Shown one piece after another: positions 17,414 through 60,850 of a stretch of DNA of 64,000 bases. The stretch covers positions 14,322,001 to 14,386,000 of the forward strand of contig OZ024764.1 of assembly GCA_964016885.1 (NCBI GenBank). The letters are read 5' to 3'. Within the stretch, counting starts at the first letter, position 1. The number at the start of each line of letters is the position of its first letter. A model generated the notes under the pieces. It was not told the origin of the DNA. It saw only the letters and a program-made list of their open reading frames with translations, and made no database searches. This DNA comes from Eledone cirrhosa. Lineage: Eukaryota. The translations under genes and the position numbers were made by a program.

Positions 17414-17585
17414 AGGAGAGAGTATGACCCCGACGGCAGAGCTCAAACCGTTTCGACGGCTATTTCTGGCTTGAGCTCTGCCGTCGGGGTCATACTCTCT
17501 CCTATTACCCACTCTACTACTCTAAGTATTGAGTACTCAGGTGCGTTATGGTCCACCTAGTCCCTTACCACAACTCCTCCGTTAT
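17414..17585 (+). mobile_element. family B fold-back element in (TA)n
   Basis: Inverted arms gacccc-gacggc..gccgtc-ggggtc followed by an ACTC..GAGTAC hairpin and tail. Confidence 0.7.
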
Positions 17586-17960
17586 ATATATATATATATA
17601 TATATATATATATATATATATATATATATATATATATATATATATGTATGTATACACACACACACACATACACACACACACGCACACACACACAGTCAAA
17701 CATACACATATATTTAGTCTGGTACATACCCGATGAATGTTTTTTTGATTTTTTTTACTTTTAAAAAATCAAGGGACATTACTCCAAAATCATTTAGTAG
17801 AGTTAGCTCCCCCATCCATTATTGAGAGCGTCGTGAAGTAGACCCCCTCAAACACTCCCTCCAGCGGCTCCTGTCAGGAGCAACCGTCTCCAACTGATCC
17901 AGCAGGGTCCCCAAGAGAGACCAGCCAAGCTCATAGAAGGTTAAAACAATGATTTACAAA

Positions 17961-18140
17961 GGGGCGGTGGATTGGCAGTGACCGACAGAGAGTGGGACAC
18001 CATGCTTTGCAGCATAGAGTTACGTCCCTTGTCATTCTGAGTGCAAATCCCGCCGAGGTTAACTTTGCCTTTCGTCCTTACGGGGTCGATAAAATGAAGT
18101 ACCAGTAATGCACTGAGGTAATTGCTAGCCTTGTGCCAAA
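17961..18140 (+). mobile_element. tRNA-derived SINE family A
   Basis: gggcggtggattggc..caaatcccgccgaggttaactttgcctt..ggggtcgataaaatgaagtaccagt; many copies in the window. Confidence 0.75.
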
Positions 18141-18940
18141 CGTAGGTGCCTGGCTCCATGCTCTGCCCTCGTTACCCACTGGCACGCAGCTAGACAACCA
18201 TAGCCTGCGAATCGGTGTTTCCCTGAGGCTCGGCCTCCGGATCTGCCAGCCACACCAATGTCGCTGCGGTTCCACCGTGGACTCTTTCGGCCTCCACCCG
18301 CTTTCCTGTCGCCACAGTGCCGGCCGCATTCCACGCCATACTGCCCTCAACGAGGTCATTAAGCATGGTTTGGACGCTGCAGGCTTCCCTTCCCAGCTCG
18401 AGCCGGTGGGGCTGGATCGAAGCGACGGCAAAAGGCCAGATGGCATGACCATCTTCCCGTTCCGCGGTGGCAAACCCCTCGTCCGGGATGCCACTCGCAC
18501 CGACACTTTCTGCAGCCGCAACCTGGTGCAGTCTGCGACTGTCCCAGGTTCTGCTGCACGTCGGGCTGAGGGGGCCAAACTCCTCAAATACCGGTCGCTC
18601 TCTGACAGGTTTGCGGTCGTTCCCCTGGCAGTGGAAACTTCTGGTGTCCTCGGCCCCAGGGCTACCTCCTTACTCACCACCATAGACGCTGATCTGGCCA
18701 GCCGCAGGTGTGAGCCACGCGAGTTGGAGTGGCTTTTCTAGCGCGTCTCCCTTGCCGTCCTCCGGGGAAACGCCTTCTCCATTCTGTCCGCCGGGGCTGT
18801 GGGTGGGCTCCATCGCGTACCAATACATTAGTTAAATACCATTCTTTCATCGTTACAACTTATATCCACATTAATGACGTATTATCTTTATTATTTATGG
18901 CGTTGACCAACAACTAAAAATAAACAAGAAATACATTTTT
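18133..18940 (+). pseudogene. CRE-clade non-LTR retrotransposon C-terminal fragment (Zn knuckle and restriction-like endonuclease) with 3'UTR
   Basis: GAWL..LRLG..CRCG..H.LSC..RH..LN..LEP.GL...DGKRPDG..AVET.G; TAG at 18739 then RVSLAVLRGNA; GC-rich. Confidence 0.8.
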
Positions 18941-18965
18941 TTTAAAGATATTTAAATCTTTTAGT

Positions 18966-18971
18966 TTTATT
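18966..18971 (-). promoter_or_regulatory. putative polyadenylation signal of the defensin gene
   Basis: AATAAA on the minus strand about 170 nt after the stop codon. Confidence 0.5.
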
Positions 18972-19138
18972 CACCATTTTTTTTCTGCTGATGTTGTTAC
19001 TGTTGTTGTCATCATTGACTTTGCTGTAGTTTATAAGATGCTGTTGGTATCTATTTGTTGTTATTGTTGTTGTTGGTGGTGTGGTGGTGGTATTATTGTT
19101 GTTGTTGGCAGCGACGACGACGGCGGTAGTGGTGGTGT

Positions 19139-19272
19139 TTATATCAGACAAATACAAGACTTGTTAGAGTTACATATACCACCTCTGCTGTGTCCCAGGC
19201 GGATACAGTGAACAAAACAACCCATGGCGCCCATCACATTACAGCTAATACCTCGGACACTGAGGACCTTCT
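19139..19272 (-). CDS. defensin precursor, exon 3 (EKVLSVR-GISCNVMGAMGCFVHCIRLGHSRGGICNSNKSCICLI*)
   Basis: Acceptor tgttccag|, phase 1; six Cys spaced C-x7-C-x3-C-x10-C-x5-C-x-C with a GxC gamma-core; TAA at 19141-19139. Confidence 0.9.
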
Positions 19273-57780: not shown

Positions 57781-58984
57781 CAGCAGCTTCATTCATAGCC
57801 TTTCAGACTGACCAAGCCCTTGTTTTCTGGTCTTAAGGGATTTGGTGTCAGGAAAGAGGAGTAGAGGGAGAAACTTGTCTAACTTCATTCTTACGTACTA
57901 AGTATCTGTGTGTGTGTATATATATATATATATATATATATATATATATAAATGCCTATGTATGTATATATATAAATGCCTATGTATGTATATATAAAAA
58001 TGCATATGTAAGTATATATATGTATATATATCTATAGATATGTATATATATATATGTATATATATATATATATATACATATCTATAGATATATGTATATA
58101 TATCTATAGATATGTATATATATATATATAGATATGTATATATATATATATATATGTATATATATATATATATATATGTATATATATATATATATGTATA
58201 TATATATATATATATGTATATATATGTATATATATCTATATATATGTATATGTATATATATATATATATATATGTATATATATCTATATATATGTATATA
58301 TATCTATATATATCTATATATATGTATATATATATATATATGTGTATATATATATATCTATATATATGTATATATATATCTATATATATGTATATATATA
58401 TATATATATGTATATATATATATATGTATATATATATATGTGTATATATATATATATATATGTGTGTATATATATATATATATGTGTGTATATATATATA
58501 TATGTGTATATATATATATATGTGTATATATCTATATATATGTATATATAATCTGTATATATGTATATATATATCTATATATATCTATGTATATGTATAT
58601 ATATATATATATATGTATATATATCTATATGTATGTGTATATATATATAATGTATATTGTCTGTATATATTTATGTATATACATGTATGTATATTGTATG
58701 TGTAGATATATATGTATATAGACAAAAACAGTCTCTATGTGTGTGTATTATATATATAATATATATATATATATATATATATATATCAGTGTGTTTATGT
58801 TCTGTCTGTACTGTCAGTCAGGTGACCTAAAAAGAATATGCCAGGAATTTTAACACCATCTTTTGTAACAATTCTTCAGTTGCTAACTTTGACTCTTCCA
58901 TTTCCATATTTCTAATGAAAAGACATTCTTCTTATGATATTCAAATGATTTTCAAAATAATCAAGAATTTGGAGAGACTCATTA

Positions 58985-59620
58985 TTAAGTTTGTGTTTGG
59001 AACATAACTTAAAGGTTCTTACATAAAATTATGATGGAAGGTCTTTAGATAAATATAAACACTTTAACCCTTTTGTTACCATATTTCTAATGAAAGACAC
59101 TGTTGGTGTTTAGAACATAACTTAACAAAGGTTCTTACATAAAATTATGATGGAAGGTTTTTTTAGATAAATATAAAACACTTTAACCCTTTTGTTACCA
59201 TATTTCTAATGAAAGACACTGTTGGTGTTTGGAACATAACTTAACAAAGGTTCTTACATAAAATTATGATGGAAGGTCTTTAGATAAATATAAACACTTT
59301 AAACCTTTTGTTAACATATTTCTAATGAAAGACACTGTTGGTGTTTGGAACATAACTTAACAAAGGTTCTTACATAAAATTATGATGGAAGGTTTTTAGA
59401 TAAATATAAACACTTTAACCCTTTTGTTACCATATTTCTAATGAAAGACACTGTTGGTGTTTGGAACATAACTTAACAAAGGTTCTTACATAAAATTATG
59501 ATGGAAGGTTTTTTTAGATAAATATAAACACTTTAACCCTTTTGTTACCATATTTCTAATGAAAGACACTGTTGGTGTTTGGAACATAACTTAACAAAGG
59601 TTCTTGCATAAAATTATGTA
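58985..59620. repeat. ~118-bp tandem (5 copies) containing a TTAACCCTTTTGTTACC MITE-like end
   Basis: Direct inspection. Confidence 0.85.
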
Positions 59621-59780
59621 AATACAGACACTTATAAATACATAAAAAAATTACTAGATGATTTAAAACGGGGCAATTTTGAAAACCTGGGATTGCATGG
59701 GGAGGAATTTGACCTGTGTCTCTGAGAACCACTGGGTTATACAATTTTGCAAAAACCTTTTAAATGCATATATATATATA

Positions 59781-60505
59781 TCATCATCATCGTTTAATGT
59801 CCATCTTCCACGCTAGCATGGGTTAGACGGTTTTGTTCCAATTGAGGCGGGACTGGTCGGGAGACCGTGTCTCGCTCATACAGAACTGTCCCTGGCAGGT
59901 TTTCTACAGCTGGATGCCCTTCCTAACACCAACCACATTTACAGTGTGGACTGGGAGCCTTTTCACCATGTCTCCTACATGACCACATTACAGTGTGGAC
60001 TGGGAGCCTTTTCACCATGTCTCCTACATGACCACATTACAGTGTGGACTGGGAGCCTTTTTACCGTGTCTCCTACATGACCACTTTACAGTGTGGACTG
60101 GGAGCCTTTTCACCATGTCTCCTACATGACCACCGTACAGTGTGGACTGGGAGCCTTTTCACCATGTCTCCTACAAGACCACCTTACAGTGTGGACTGGG
60201 AGCCTTTTTACCGTGTCTCCTACATGACCACTTTACAGTGTGGACTGGGAGCCTTTTCACCATGTCTCCTACATGACCACTTTGCAGTGTGGACTGGGAG
60301 CCTTTTCACCATGTCTCCTACAAGACCACTTTACAGTGTGGACTGGGAGCCTTTTTACTGTGTCTCCTACAAGACCACTTTACAGTGTGGACTGGGAGCC
60401 TTTTCACCATGTCTCCTACATGACCACCTTACAGTGTGGACTGGGAACCTTTTTACCGTGTCACCTATACGACCACTTTACAGTGTGGATGGGTGCTTTT
60501 TGTCA
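59781..60505 (-). mobile_element. SINE-B-related element with a 49-bp minisatellite (~11 units)
   Basis: acagtgtggactgggagccttttcaccatgtctcctacatgaccacatt units following the RTE-type tail. Confidence 0.8.
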
Positions 60506-60545
60506 TGTCACTGACTGTGTGTGTGTGTGTATATATATATATATA

Positions 60546-60700
60546 TCATCATCATCATCATTTTACATCCGCTTTTCCTTGCTTGCAAGGGTGGGACGGG
60601 TCCTATTCAGCACACCATCTCTTCACTTGTCACGGTCCTTCATCATCTCCTCCATGAGCTTCAACGATCTGAGGTCTGCTCTCACCACCTCCGCCCAGGT
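60546..60700 (-). mobile_element. RTE LINE 3' end whose 3' terminus matches the SINE B tail
   Basis: TWAEVVRADLRSLKLMEEMMKDRDK*R, then cccgtcccacccttgcaagc..gtaaaatgatgatg. Confidence 0.7.
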
Positions 60701-60850
60701 GGACCATAACACACCAGAGTACTCAATACTTAGGGTAGTAGAGTGGGTAATAGGAAATTGTTCAAGTCCCCGATGACAGAGCTCAAGCCGTTTCGACGGC
60801 TATTTCTGGATCGTCGATACGGCTTGATCTCTGCCGTCGGGGACTTGAAT
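60697..60850 (-). mobile_element. family B fold-back element
   Basis: GAGTAC hairpin on the minus strand plus inverted arms ttcaagtcccc..ggggacttgaa. Confidence 0.7.

What the first reader, a model, noticed from the sequence alone, without database searches (positions are those of the whole stretch)
17511..60744. Shared covarying hairpin ACTC-N12-18-GAGTRC downstream of ribozymes in unrelated families
Seen: otherwise dissimilar families carry ACTC..(T/A/C)GAGT(A/G)C a few tens of nt 3' of the hammerhead, just before the terminal tail. Sites: 3833(-), 17511, 21313, 22853, 25617, 33411, 34796, 41253, 41404(-), 42318 and 60719(-). Two elements (24060-24082 and 27680-27704, minus strand) have the double change GCTC..GAGCAC, a compensatory A-U to G-C swap. 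A GAGTGCTTTTCC end is shared by 10929(+) and 46490(-). Inference: a conserved cis-acting RNA/DNA signal, perhaps for RT or endonuclease recognition, that I do not recognise as a named motif.
Basis: partly seen in the sequence, partly recalled or inferred. Interest (0 to 1): 0.7.

Follow-up and report, generated by a model that had tools for sequence, protein, structure and literature searches.

The report
Conserved tail hairpin of Penelope-like retrotransposons
The motif is a real, apparently undescribed RNA hairpin with a two-base bulge, found in the short 'tail' of one group of ribozyme-carrying jumping genes (Hydra-clade Penelope-like elements) in several marine animal groups, and it most likely marks where their telomerase-related enzyme grips the RNA to start copying it.

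Summary
The motif is real and larger than first described. It is a stem-bulge-stem, RCUC-[inner stem, loop]-UN-GAGY-RC-Y. The first three inner pairs form in 34 of 36 cells across 12 representative copies, with several pair types. It lies inside the optional 3' 'tail' of hammerhead-bearing, (TA)n-inserted Penelope-like elements. Tail-less copies stop at or before its first base (17 of 18 within 17 nt). Tailed copies end 32-62 nt after it. The same element follows Hydra-type RT/GIY-YIG ORF ends in five contigs of one assembly. It also occurs in 3 of 6 published Hydra-clade consensi, from coral and sea cucumber, plus a copepod variant. The window has no ORF, so its clade assignment is indirect. 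Best explanation (0.55): an RNA anchor for the element's RT that sets two priming sites, one on each side. This is inferred from insertion anatomy; binding was not tested. No description was found in Rfam or ten literature searches.

The parts
17511..17536 (+). Tail hairpin, family A (ACTC; inner stem TACT/AGTA; TT bulge; GAGTAC)
21313..21338 (+). Tail hairpin, family A; 3' half of a hammerhead upstream, inverted tail-less partner 21205-21298(-)
22853..22878 (+). Tail hairpin, family A
41253..41278 (+). Tail hairpin, family A; 46-nt tail to (TA)n
60719..60744 (-). Tail hairpin, family A; tail interrupted by other sequence
42493..42518 (+).
3830..3850 (-). Tail hairpin, family B (inner TGC/GTA with G-U; TT bulge), 27 nt after the ribozyme cleavage site
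41404..41424 (-). Tail hairpin, family B, 27 nt after the cleavage site
33411..33432 (+). Tail hairpin, family C (inner CA/TG; TT bulge), 57 nt after the cleavage site
25617..25638 (+). Tail hairpin, family C; a tail-only piece that starts 0-3 nt before the hairpin and abuts an inverted tail-less copy
34796..34822 (+). Tail hairpin, family D (inner CAGT/ACTG; TA bulge), 50 nt after the cleavage site
42318..42344 (+). Tail hairpin, family E (inner CA/TG; TA bulge)
24060..24082 (-). Tail hairpin, family F (GCTC/GAGC; inner TGTA/TACA; TA bulge); no adjacent ribozyme, Tx1-like fragment upstream
27682..27704 (-). Tail hairpin, family F; tail-only piece starting about 4 nt before the hairpin, after (TA)n
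50406..50453 (-). Long-loop variant, new family H (GCTC..TT GAGC CC), 31 nt after a CAGAAGA-type hammerhead
2213..2252 (+). Family H hairpin in a tail-only piece that starts at -3, exactly where the abutting inverted tail-less copy ends (-3)
46496..46561 (-). Tentative long-loop variant, family G (spacer 56); CTGATGA upstream but no GAAA
   Evidence: CM E 2.3
10880..10934 (+). Homolog of the 46490 copy with a mismatched 5' arm; tentative
22600..22631 (+). Family B tail piece that begins inside the hairpin (3' arm only)
3874..3920 (-). Type I hammerhead, family B (tailed copy); inverted tail-less partner 3924-3970(+)
41448..41494 (-). Type I hammerhead, family B (tailed copy); inverted tail-less partner 41500-41546(+)
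33300..33357 (+). Type I hammerhead, family C (tailed copy)
25507..25563 (-). Type I hammerhead, family C, tail-less inverted partner of the 25617 tail
1609..1665 (-). Type I hammerhead, family C, tail-less copy
34687..34749 (+). Type I hammerhead, family D (tailed copy); inverted tail-less partner 34547-34609(-)
42126..42183 (-). Type I hammerhead, family E, tail-less inverted partner
50481..50529 (-). Hammerhead topology with CAGAAGA core, family H (second copy 2145-2185(-), tail-less)
11127..11181 (+). Tail-less family A copy ending 5-8 nt before the hairpin position
33703..33759 (-). Tail-less family A copy
10581..10630 (+). Tail-less family A copy

Best explanation
The motif is an RNA stem-bulge-stem in the tail of Hydra-clade Penelope-like elements. 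It serves as the binding and positioning site for the element's RT-GIY-YIG protein. SHOWN: the covarying structure; its place 27-57 nt 3' of the hammerhead cleavage site; two classes of insertion ends that bracket it; and its link to Hydra-type ORF ends in other genomes. INFERRED: the protein binds the sense RNA at the hairpin and nicks (TA)n DNA. It starts cDNA either at a short UA-rich tract just 5' of the hairpin (tail-less end) or 32-62 nt 3' of it (tailed end). When both priming events happen in one insertion (twin priming, plausibly by a protein dimer), the product is an inverted tail-less copy joined to a direct tailed copy, the anatomy seen here. The window copies are 5'-truncated or non-autonomous ends of such elements.
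For: Inner pairs 1-3 form in 34 of 36 cells with a 2-nt bulge, against 15, 7, 5 and 12 for bulges of 0, 1, 3 and 4. Permutation p is 1e-5 with 8 less-related families. Pair types are U-A/C-G; A-U/G-U/G-C/U-A; C-G/A-U/G-C/U-A. In the CM-fitted alignment 109 of 109 cells pair and 4 of 7 pairs change on both sides. Of 14 full-topology hammerhead matches in the window, 5 carry the motif at +27 to +57, 8 hit (TA)n at +10 to +54 and lack it, and 1 has neither. All 18 tail-less copies end at or before the first stem base, at A/T microhomology; 17 of them within 17 nt. 18 of 21 tailed copies end 32-62 nt after GAGYRC; the other 3 show no (TA)n/(CA)n end within range. At 2213 the inverted short copy ends at -3 and the tail-only piece starts at -3; 25617 has the same geometry. 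5 of 30 genome-contig loci, all from assembly CBDDTI01, have both a CTGATGA core and a 3-4 bp inner stem, neither of which was in the pattern; 0 of the other 25 have both. Two more motif-bearing ribozyme elements turned up there unsearched. L003, L014 and L026 join a GIY-YIG-type ORF end to ribozyme and motif; DKT and CxCX5C diagnostics are present. The motif is in Hydra-2_Amil, Hydra-2_Ajap and Hydra-1_Ajap, with a variant in Hydra-1_Crog (PMC8557442 File S7). Precedent in a PLE of another clade: RT starts at two internal sites, the tail is the stretch between them, both strands are cut and extended, and the protein is predicted to be a dimer (PMC11167929).
Against: No binding or priming was measured. 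No ORF remnant was found in the window (tblastn E<=1), so clade membership of the window copies is indirect. Family A has no complete hammerhead core, and F has no ribozyme, in the window. Thermodynamic support is weak and does not pick a strand: outer-stem probability is 0.16-1.0 for sense and 0.0-1.0 for antisense across 11 families. Strand evidence is only a few G-U pairs. The permutation tests ignore phylogeny, and alignment A5 was fitted to the structure. The short end sits in TA-rich sequence where any (TA)n primer could anneal, so proximity to the hairpin may be partly incidental. One piece (22600) begins inside the hairpin. The PAc template stretch has no such motif, so the precedent is an analogy. 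Craig et al. ascribe the tail to endonuclease-mediated resolution, and a DNA-level requirement for the tail was reported for D. virilis Penelope endonuclease (as cited in PMC11167929).
Confidence: 0.55

Rival explanations
1. The structure acts in DNA. The endonuclease (or RT during second-strand synthesis) recognises it as a single-stranded cDNA hairpin or cruciform and cuts just 5' of it, which creates the tail boundary.
For: The D. virilis Penelope tail was needed for EN recognition on plasmids (cited in PMC11167929). Craig et al. suggest EN-mediated resolution makes the tail. Antisense folding is as stable as sense in many families. A cut 5' of the hairpin would also give complementary pieces such as those at 2213.
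Against: The non-Watson-Crick pairs kept in the stems are G-U on the sense strand (family B, X1, 42493) with no A-C, which favours sense RNA, though on only three cases. Spacers of 11-17 and up to 40 nt exclude a duplex DNA site.
Confidence: 0.16
2. It is a 5' UTR element for translation or stability of the uncapped RNA left by hammerhead cleavage. In a tandem, the tail is the start of the next unit, between ribozyme and ORF.
For: Hydra-1_Ajap carries two copies at its very 5' end, about 110 nt before the ORF. Ribozyme cleavage can drive cap-independent translation in RNA viruses (PMC13725137, abstract only).
Against: It does not explain why insertion ends cluster just 5' of the hairpin and 32-62 nt 3' of it in every family examined. 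In that abstract, cleavage alone sufficed.
Confidence: 0.12
3. It binds a host factor or the element protein to help the hammerhead fold, cleave or be ligated into a circle.
For: Fixed distance 3' of the ribozyme. The PAc ribozyme cleaves only with protein. Circular intermediates are proposed for PLEs.
Against: The motif is unchanged while ribozyme stem III varies (ATA/TAT, ACAG/CTGT, ACTC/GAGT), so it is not a base-pairing partner. Ribozyme cleavage was dispensable for PAc insertion in vitro. This rival is compatible with, and may be a side effect of, the best explanation.
Confidence: 0.08
4. It is the internal Pol II promoter (Inr/DPE-like boxes) of the pLTR.
For: PLE promoters lie in the pLTR, and the 34-bp Penelope repeat scores as a basal promoter (PMC2377424). 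The outer bases and the RC dinucleotide are conserved in sequence.
Against: Variable spacing and compensatory changes in the inner stem point to a folded strand. The 34-bp repeat was not required for normal Penelope initiation.
Confidence: 0.05
5. It is chance similarity or plain descent among repeat copies, with no function.
For: The 13 sites are only 6 families, and the raw count ranks 30th of 2048 patterns. 19 of 62 chance matches have an inner stem of 2 or more pairs.
Against: The structure is kept with different sequences while the flanks do not align, and it recurs at the same position in coral and sea cucumber consensi and in another assembly.
Confidence: 0.03

Closest known systems
Hydra clade of C-terminal EN+ Penelope-like elements (Craig et al. 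2021, PMC8557442)
   Same: (TA)n insertion, canonical type I hammerhead near the 3' end, inverted partner copies and an optional tail. The motif itself is in 3 of 6 published consensi, plus one variant.
   Different: The paper's main text has no occurrence of 'hairpin' or 'stem-loop' and its Hydra section describes no tail structure. The tail here is about 55-90 nt including the hairpin, against the 30-40 bp given for PLEs in general. The window copies have no ORF.
AC-rich stem-loop and two RT start sites of the Poseidon element PAc (Frangieh et al. 2024, PMC11167929)
   Same: A stem-loop 3' of the hammerhead at the tail, two internal priming sites that define the tail, and AT-rich targets. 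Many loops here are also A/C-rich.
   Different: PAc's stem-loop lies inside the ORF, priming is within its loop, and the RNA stretch shown has no RCUC..UN-GAGY-RC. Here the element is non-coding, conserved across phyla, and bracketed by the ends.
3' cis-acting stem-loops of stringent LINEs/SINEs (L2 UnaL2/ZfL2, R2 3' UTR); recalled, from no call
   Same: A small structured RNA near the template end that recruits the element's own RT (works-like comparison).
   Different: Different RT class and different structure. Those elements prime at the RNA 3' end; this one appears to set two internal start sites.
Hepadnavirus epsilon and telomerase RNA template-flanking elements; recalled, from no call
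   Same: A stem-bulge-stem or anchoring helix that fixes where an RT starts on its RNA. PLE RTs are sister to TERT (PMC8557442 abstract).
   Different: No sequence match, and no Rfam hit to the motif. Epsilon templates protein priming from its bulge; nothing here suggests that.

Membership tests
Penelope-like element 3' end (pLTR + tail), window copies | Type I hammerhead in the pLTR | tested here: met
   Full topology for families B, C, D, E (partner) and H. Only the 3' half for A and none for F. Rfam gathering found no hammerhead, so this rests on my own descriptor.
Penelope-like element 3' end (pLTR + tail), window copies | Inverted 5'-truncated partner and optional tail at one end | tested here: met
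Penelope-like element 3' end (pLTR + tail), window copies | RT and GIY-YIG ORF | tested here: not met
   No tblastn hit in the window at E<=1 with three Hydra-type proteins; copies are 5'-truncated or non-autonomous.
Hydra clade, window copies | Insertion into (TA)n | tested here: met
   11 of 13 motifs have a microsatellite 61-87 nt downstream of their start, (TA)n except (CA)n at 24082
Hydra clade, window copies | Protein diagnostics (RWK, DKT, CxCX5C, no CCHH) and RT phylogeny | not testable with these tools
   No ORF in the window; the assignment rests on architecture and the shared motif, which is partly circular.
Hydra clade, motif-bearing elements in L003/L014/L026/L027 | DKT motif, CxCX5C linker, CxxC and CxH around the EN catalytic residues | tested here: met
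   DKT in L027; CxCX5C, CxxC and CRH in L027, L026 and L003, as defined in PMC8557442 section 11
Hydra clade, motif-bearing elements in L003/L014/L026/L027 | C-terminal GIY-YIG endonuclease | tested here: inconclusive
   Pfam GIY-YIG E 0.0032 for L026, below the curated cut-off; no hit for L027 or L003
Hydra clade, motif-bearing elements in L003/L014/L026/L027 | N-terminal RWK motif, absence of CCHH, placement in an RT tree | not tested
   The N terminus is missing from the loci; R[WF]K is in 75 of 120 homologs; no tree was built.
Known Rfam RNA family | Covariance-model match over the motif | tested here: not met
   Window at gathering score: only one tRNA-like hit. Five loci at E<=1: no motif-sized hit; four weak miRNA hits fall on long palindromes. 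In one search only the best 150 of 519 rows were shown.
Hammerhead stem III (a second, degenerate ribozyme) | GAA immediately 5' of the stem and an invariant A15.1-U16.1 pair | tested here: not met
   No GAA precedes RCTC in any of 12 representatives, and the first pair is G-C in 6 of 12
PAc-type AC-rich stem-loop | Same sequence/structure, priming inside the loop, location in the ORF | tested here: not met
   No RCUC..GAGY in the PAc stretch; ends here lie outside the hairpin

The most novel reading that the evidence does not exclude
The hairpin is a telomerase-RNA-like anchor. It holds a telomerase-related RT dimer so that a short UA tract next to it anneals to the nicked (TA)n target, while the second active site primes on the far side. 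Programmed twin priming around one conserved RNA element would then explain, in one mechanism, the tail, the inverted repeats and part of the (TA)n targeting of these elements. It would be a sequence-defined RT-binding RNA structure for Penelope-like elements; my searches found none described.
Probability: 0.3. Interest if true: 0.8.

Novelty: new variant of a known kind. Interest (0 to 1): 0.6.

Why it matters
Why PLE insertions carry an optional tail and inverted partners, and how their telomerase-related RT picks its RNA, are open questions. The one in vitro study located the binding region only to about 150 nt (+20 to +172) inside an ORF (PMC11167929). A 21-27 nt non-coding element with invariant bases, a fixed bulge and natural compensatory variants from several phyla gives a ready mutational series to test RT binding and priming register. 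It could also serve as an ORF-independent marker for Hydra-clade ends and non-autonomous derivatives in repeat annotation.

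Tried and rejected
Rfam: the window gave only microsatellite-driven miRNA hits among the rows shown at E<=1 (150 of 519 rows) and one tRNA-like hit at gathering score. The two relaxed matches at 14184 and 28451 lie in LINE coding fragments and have no inner stem: rejected. MAFFT could not align the variable loop, so covariation was counted with a descriptor and a CM seeded on five equal-length copies. CM hits below 14 bits other than those named were not accepted; 43663 and 3186 were viewed and dropped. 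The motif scan and tblastn found no PLE ORF in the window. There was no PDB sequence relative of a Hydra-type protein. Single-sequence folding did not choose a strand. A splice-site reading was dropped by inspection (no constant AG or GT across families). A Helitron/Helentron end hairpin was dropped because of the ribozyme and the linked RT/EN ORFs (family features recalled). A link between the tail-less ribozyme copy at 24521-24573(-) and the F tail at 24082 across the Tx1-like insertion was looked for; only a 7-nt flank match was found, so it is unresolved. The host taxon was not established: one search gave one unnamed hit, and my impression of an octopus genome is recalled. The PAc supplementary figures held almost no text and its GenBank file could not be read, so the full PAc pLTR is unchecked. 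Supplements of the bioRxiv retrozyme preprint were closed and could bear on novelty. Repbase Hydra, Neptune, Nematis and Penelope/Poseidon consensi were unavailable.

Full report
1. Observation. All 13 hairpin sites listed are in the sequence; the spacer runs 11-17 nt. The N12-18 pattern has 9 ACTC matches against 0.44 expected and 11 either-type matches against 0.61, in 300 shuffles of the 31,275 bases left after masking simple repeats. That count overstates the case, because the sites are copies of six families and the pattern ranks 30th of 2048 similar patterns. The ribozyme link is weaker than stated. A complete core lies upstream on the same strand for 4 of 13 sites. Family A shows only the 3' half, two sites have the ribozyme only in an inverted partner, and the two GCTC sites have none.

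2. The real structure. Between the conserved arms is a second stem, offset by a 2-nt bulge on the 3' side that begins with U in all 12 representatives. The consensus is RCUC-[stem, loop]-UN-GAGY-RC-Y (7 representatives from the window, 5 from other loci). The first three inner pairs form in 34 of 36 cells; other bulge sizes give 15, 7, 5 and 12. Permuting 3' bases among families gives p = 1e-5 for three pairs and 6e-4 for two pairs when only 8 less-related families are kept. These tests ignore phylogeny. Among 62 chance matches in unrelated loci, 19 have two inner pairs and 8 have three. A covariance model seeded on five GCTC-type copies recovered the ACTC families as its next-best hits and nothing in 16 control loci at E<=5. 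In the fitted alignment 109 of 109 cells pair and 4 of 7 pairs change on both sides (this alignment leans towards the structure). The second model found the three held-out sites at E 0.02-0.05 and a new long-loop family H at 50406-50453(-) and 2213-2252(+); 16 control loci gave 4 hits, the best at E 0.43. H is a GCTC/GAGC family that does follow a hammerhead topology, with a CAGAAGA core and a CC in place of RC.

3. Position. Of 14 full-topology hammerhead matches in the window, 5 are followed by the motif 27-57 nt after the cleavage site, 8 run into (TA)n within 10-54 nt and lack it, and 1 (3590, probably chance) has neither. Two looser hammerhead-like matches missed that descriptor: 25307(+) ends in (TA)n, and 27051(-) runs on with no motif. 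All 18 tail-less copies examined end at or before the first stem base, 17 of them within 17 nt, usually at a TAT/ATAT tract that merges with the (TA)n target. 18 of 21 tailed copies end 32-62 nt after GAGYRC; the other three show no such end within range. So the hairpin sits at the start of the optional tail, between two classes of ends. At 2213 an inverted tail-less copy ends at -3 and the abutting direct tail-only piece starts at -3; 25617 has the same geometry, and 27704 is a tail-only piece starting about 4 nt before the hairpin. One piece, 22600, starts inside the hairpin.

4. Evidence from elsewhere. A pattern scan of genome contigs gave 30 loci. Five come from one assembly (CBDDTI01), which is labelled bacterial, but these contigs look like animal DNA (inference). 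All five have a CTGATGA core and a 3-4 bp inner stem, features not in the pattern; none of the other 25 has both. Two further ribozyme-plus-motif elements lay in these loci unsearched, and three tail-less partners there stop 3-6 nt before the hairpin by last matched base. In L003, L014 and L026 an ORF end runs straight into ribozyme and motif. These ORFs carry DKT, CxCX5C, CxxC and CxH, the Hydra-clade diagnostics of Craig et al. (PMC8557442 section 11). Named homologs come from marine invertebrates. I read all six Hydra consensi of that paper's File S7 by eye. The motif is exact in Hydra-2_Amil (coral) and Hydra-2_Ajap (sea cucumber), about 40 nt after the ribozyme. It occurs twice at the 5' start of Hydra-1_Ajap, whose consensus begins 2 nt before it and whose 3' end stops at a TATAT tract. 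Hydra-1_Crog (copepod) has a variant with one outer mismatch and an AG bulge. Hydra-1_Amil and Hydra-1_Obim lack it, and both stop within about 50 nt of the cleavage site. For specificity I searched 10 of the 16 possible 8-mers of the 3' arm in the archive and saw 35 of 36 places. Of 31 outside Hydra, one (Naiad_Mmer 3' UTR, more than 400 nt from the end) has the full structure and may be chance; line breaks can hide matches. A different PLE-type hammerhead in L003 and the PAc template stretch lack the motif.

5. Mechanism. Shown: structure, position, bracketing ends and the link to Hydra-type ORFs. Inferred: the element's RT-endonuclease binds the hairpin in the sense RNA and primes from nicked (TA)n either at the UA tract just 5' of it or at a site 32-62 nt 3' of it. 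Both events in one insertion give the inverted tail-less copy plus direct tailed copy. The complementary junction at 2213 is what twin priming predicts (L1 twin priming is recalled, from no call). The precedent is PAc, where RT starts at two internal sites that define the tail, both strands are cut and extended, and a dimer is predicted (PMC11167929). Against: nothing was measured, folding energies do not pick a strand, only three G-U pairs favour sense RNA, and the TA-rich junction could attract priming by itself. Confidence 0.55. Rivals: a DNA-level endonuclease signal (0.16), a translation or stability element after ribozyme cleavage (0.12), a ribozyme or ligation helper (0.08), a promoter (0.05), no function (0.03).

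6. Relation to what is known. It works like the RT-recruiting stem-loops of stringent LINEs and, more loosely, like epsilon or telomerase RNA anchors (recalled). It matched no Rfam family, it is not a second hammerhead, and it is not the PAc stem-loop. The host elements are PLE ends by architecture. They are Hydra-clade by protein diagnostics in the outside loci, and only by inference in the window, which holds no ORF.

7. Novelty and sources. Ten full-text searches found no description of a conserved tail structure in PLEs; the library lacks most subscription papers. What I saw: PMC11167929, parts 1-2 of 4 and three supplements (two PDFs nearly empty, one SRA list); PMC8557442, passages, section 11 and supplement parts 1, 2, 23, 52, 53 plus two term searches; bioRxiv 10.64898/2026.07.22.740005, parts 1-2 of 5, supplements closed; PMC7229834, PMC4209133, PMC3846280, PMC2377424, PMC6765202, PMC5737381 and PMC10085705, passages only; PMC13725137, abstract and outline. 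Pyatkov 2004 and Lunse 2017 were not read.

8. Verdict. A real, apparently undescribed structured element in the tail of Hydra-clade PLEs, conserved across at least two phyla (three with the variant) besides this host. New variant of a known kind; interest 0.6. The bolder reading, programmed twin priming around a telomerase-RNA-like anchor, has probability 0.3 and would deserve 0.8.

Noticed in passing
L003, L010, L014, L026, L027 (contigs of CBDDTI01): An assembly labelled as a bacterial MAG holds contigs with (TA)n-inserted Penelope-like elements, which looks like animal host contamination in a GTDB representative.
   Followed up: partly
window 50481-50529(-) and 2145-2185(-): Two copies of a hammerhead topology with CAGAAGA in place of CTGANGA; activity unknown.
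   Followed up: partly
window 27051-27115(-) and 25307-25371(+): Hammerhead-like PLE ends without the motif; 27051 continues for more than 100 nt, perhaps another clade.
   Followed up: partly
window 24090-24575(-): A Tx1/L1-like 3' fragment sits between a tail-less ribozyme copy (24521-24573) and the family F tail; they may be one element split by the insertion, but only a 7-nt flank match was found.
   Followed up: partly
window 34390-34443(+): Tail-less ribozyme copy similar to the 24521 one, nested against the family D inverted copy; PLE ends cluster in shared (TA)n tracts (also 41320-41365).
   Followed up: no
window 19544-19990(-), also 8809-9279, 9698-10102, 20731-21106, 52910-53323: Several 3' fragments of one LINE family, often beside (TATC)n; weak zf-RVT match (E 0.0011). 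The Tx1-like label is recalled.
   Followed up: partly
window 18109-18738(+): A 210-aa frame with Cys/His motifs and an RPDG segment that resembles the C terminus of a restriction-like-endonuclease non-LTR element (recalled); no Pfam hit.
   Followed up: no
window 33982-34039(+): tRNA-like Rfam hit, probably the head of a tRNA-derived SINE.
   Followed up: no
window 15423-15650(-): Short frame that looks like a mariner-type transposase fragment (recalled); no Pfam hit.
   Followed up: no
L003 757(+), 1726(-), ORF 1901-2245(-): A second PLE type, with a different endonuclease end and hammerhead and no tail motif within 150 nt.
   Followed up: partly
PMC8557442 File S5, Naiad_Mmer 3' UTR: One full stem-bulge-stem match outside the Hydra clade, far from the element end; chance or a relative.
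   Followed up: partly
whole window: About 51% is simple or tandem repeat, including long minisatellites at 12626-13837, 37400-38623 and 54153-56321; the repeat landscape recalls an octopus genome, not tested.
   Followed up: no
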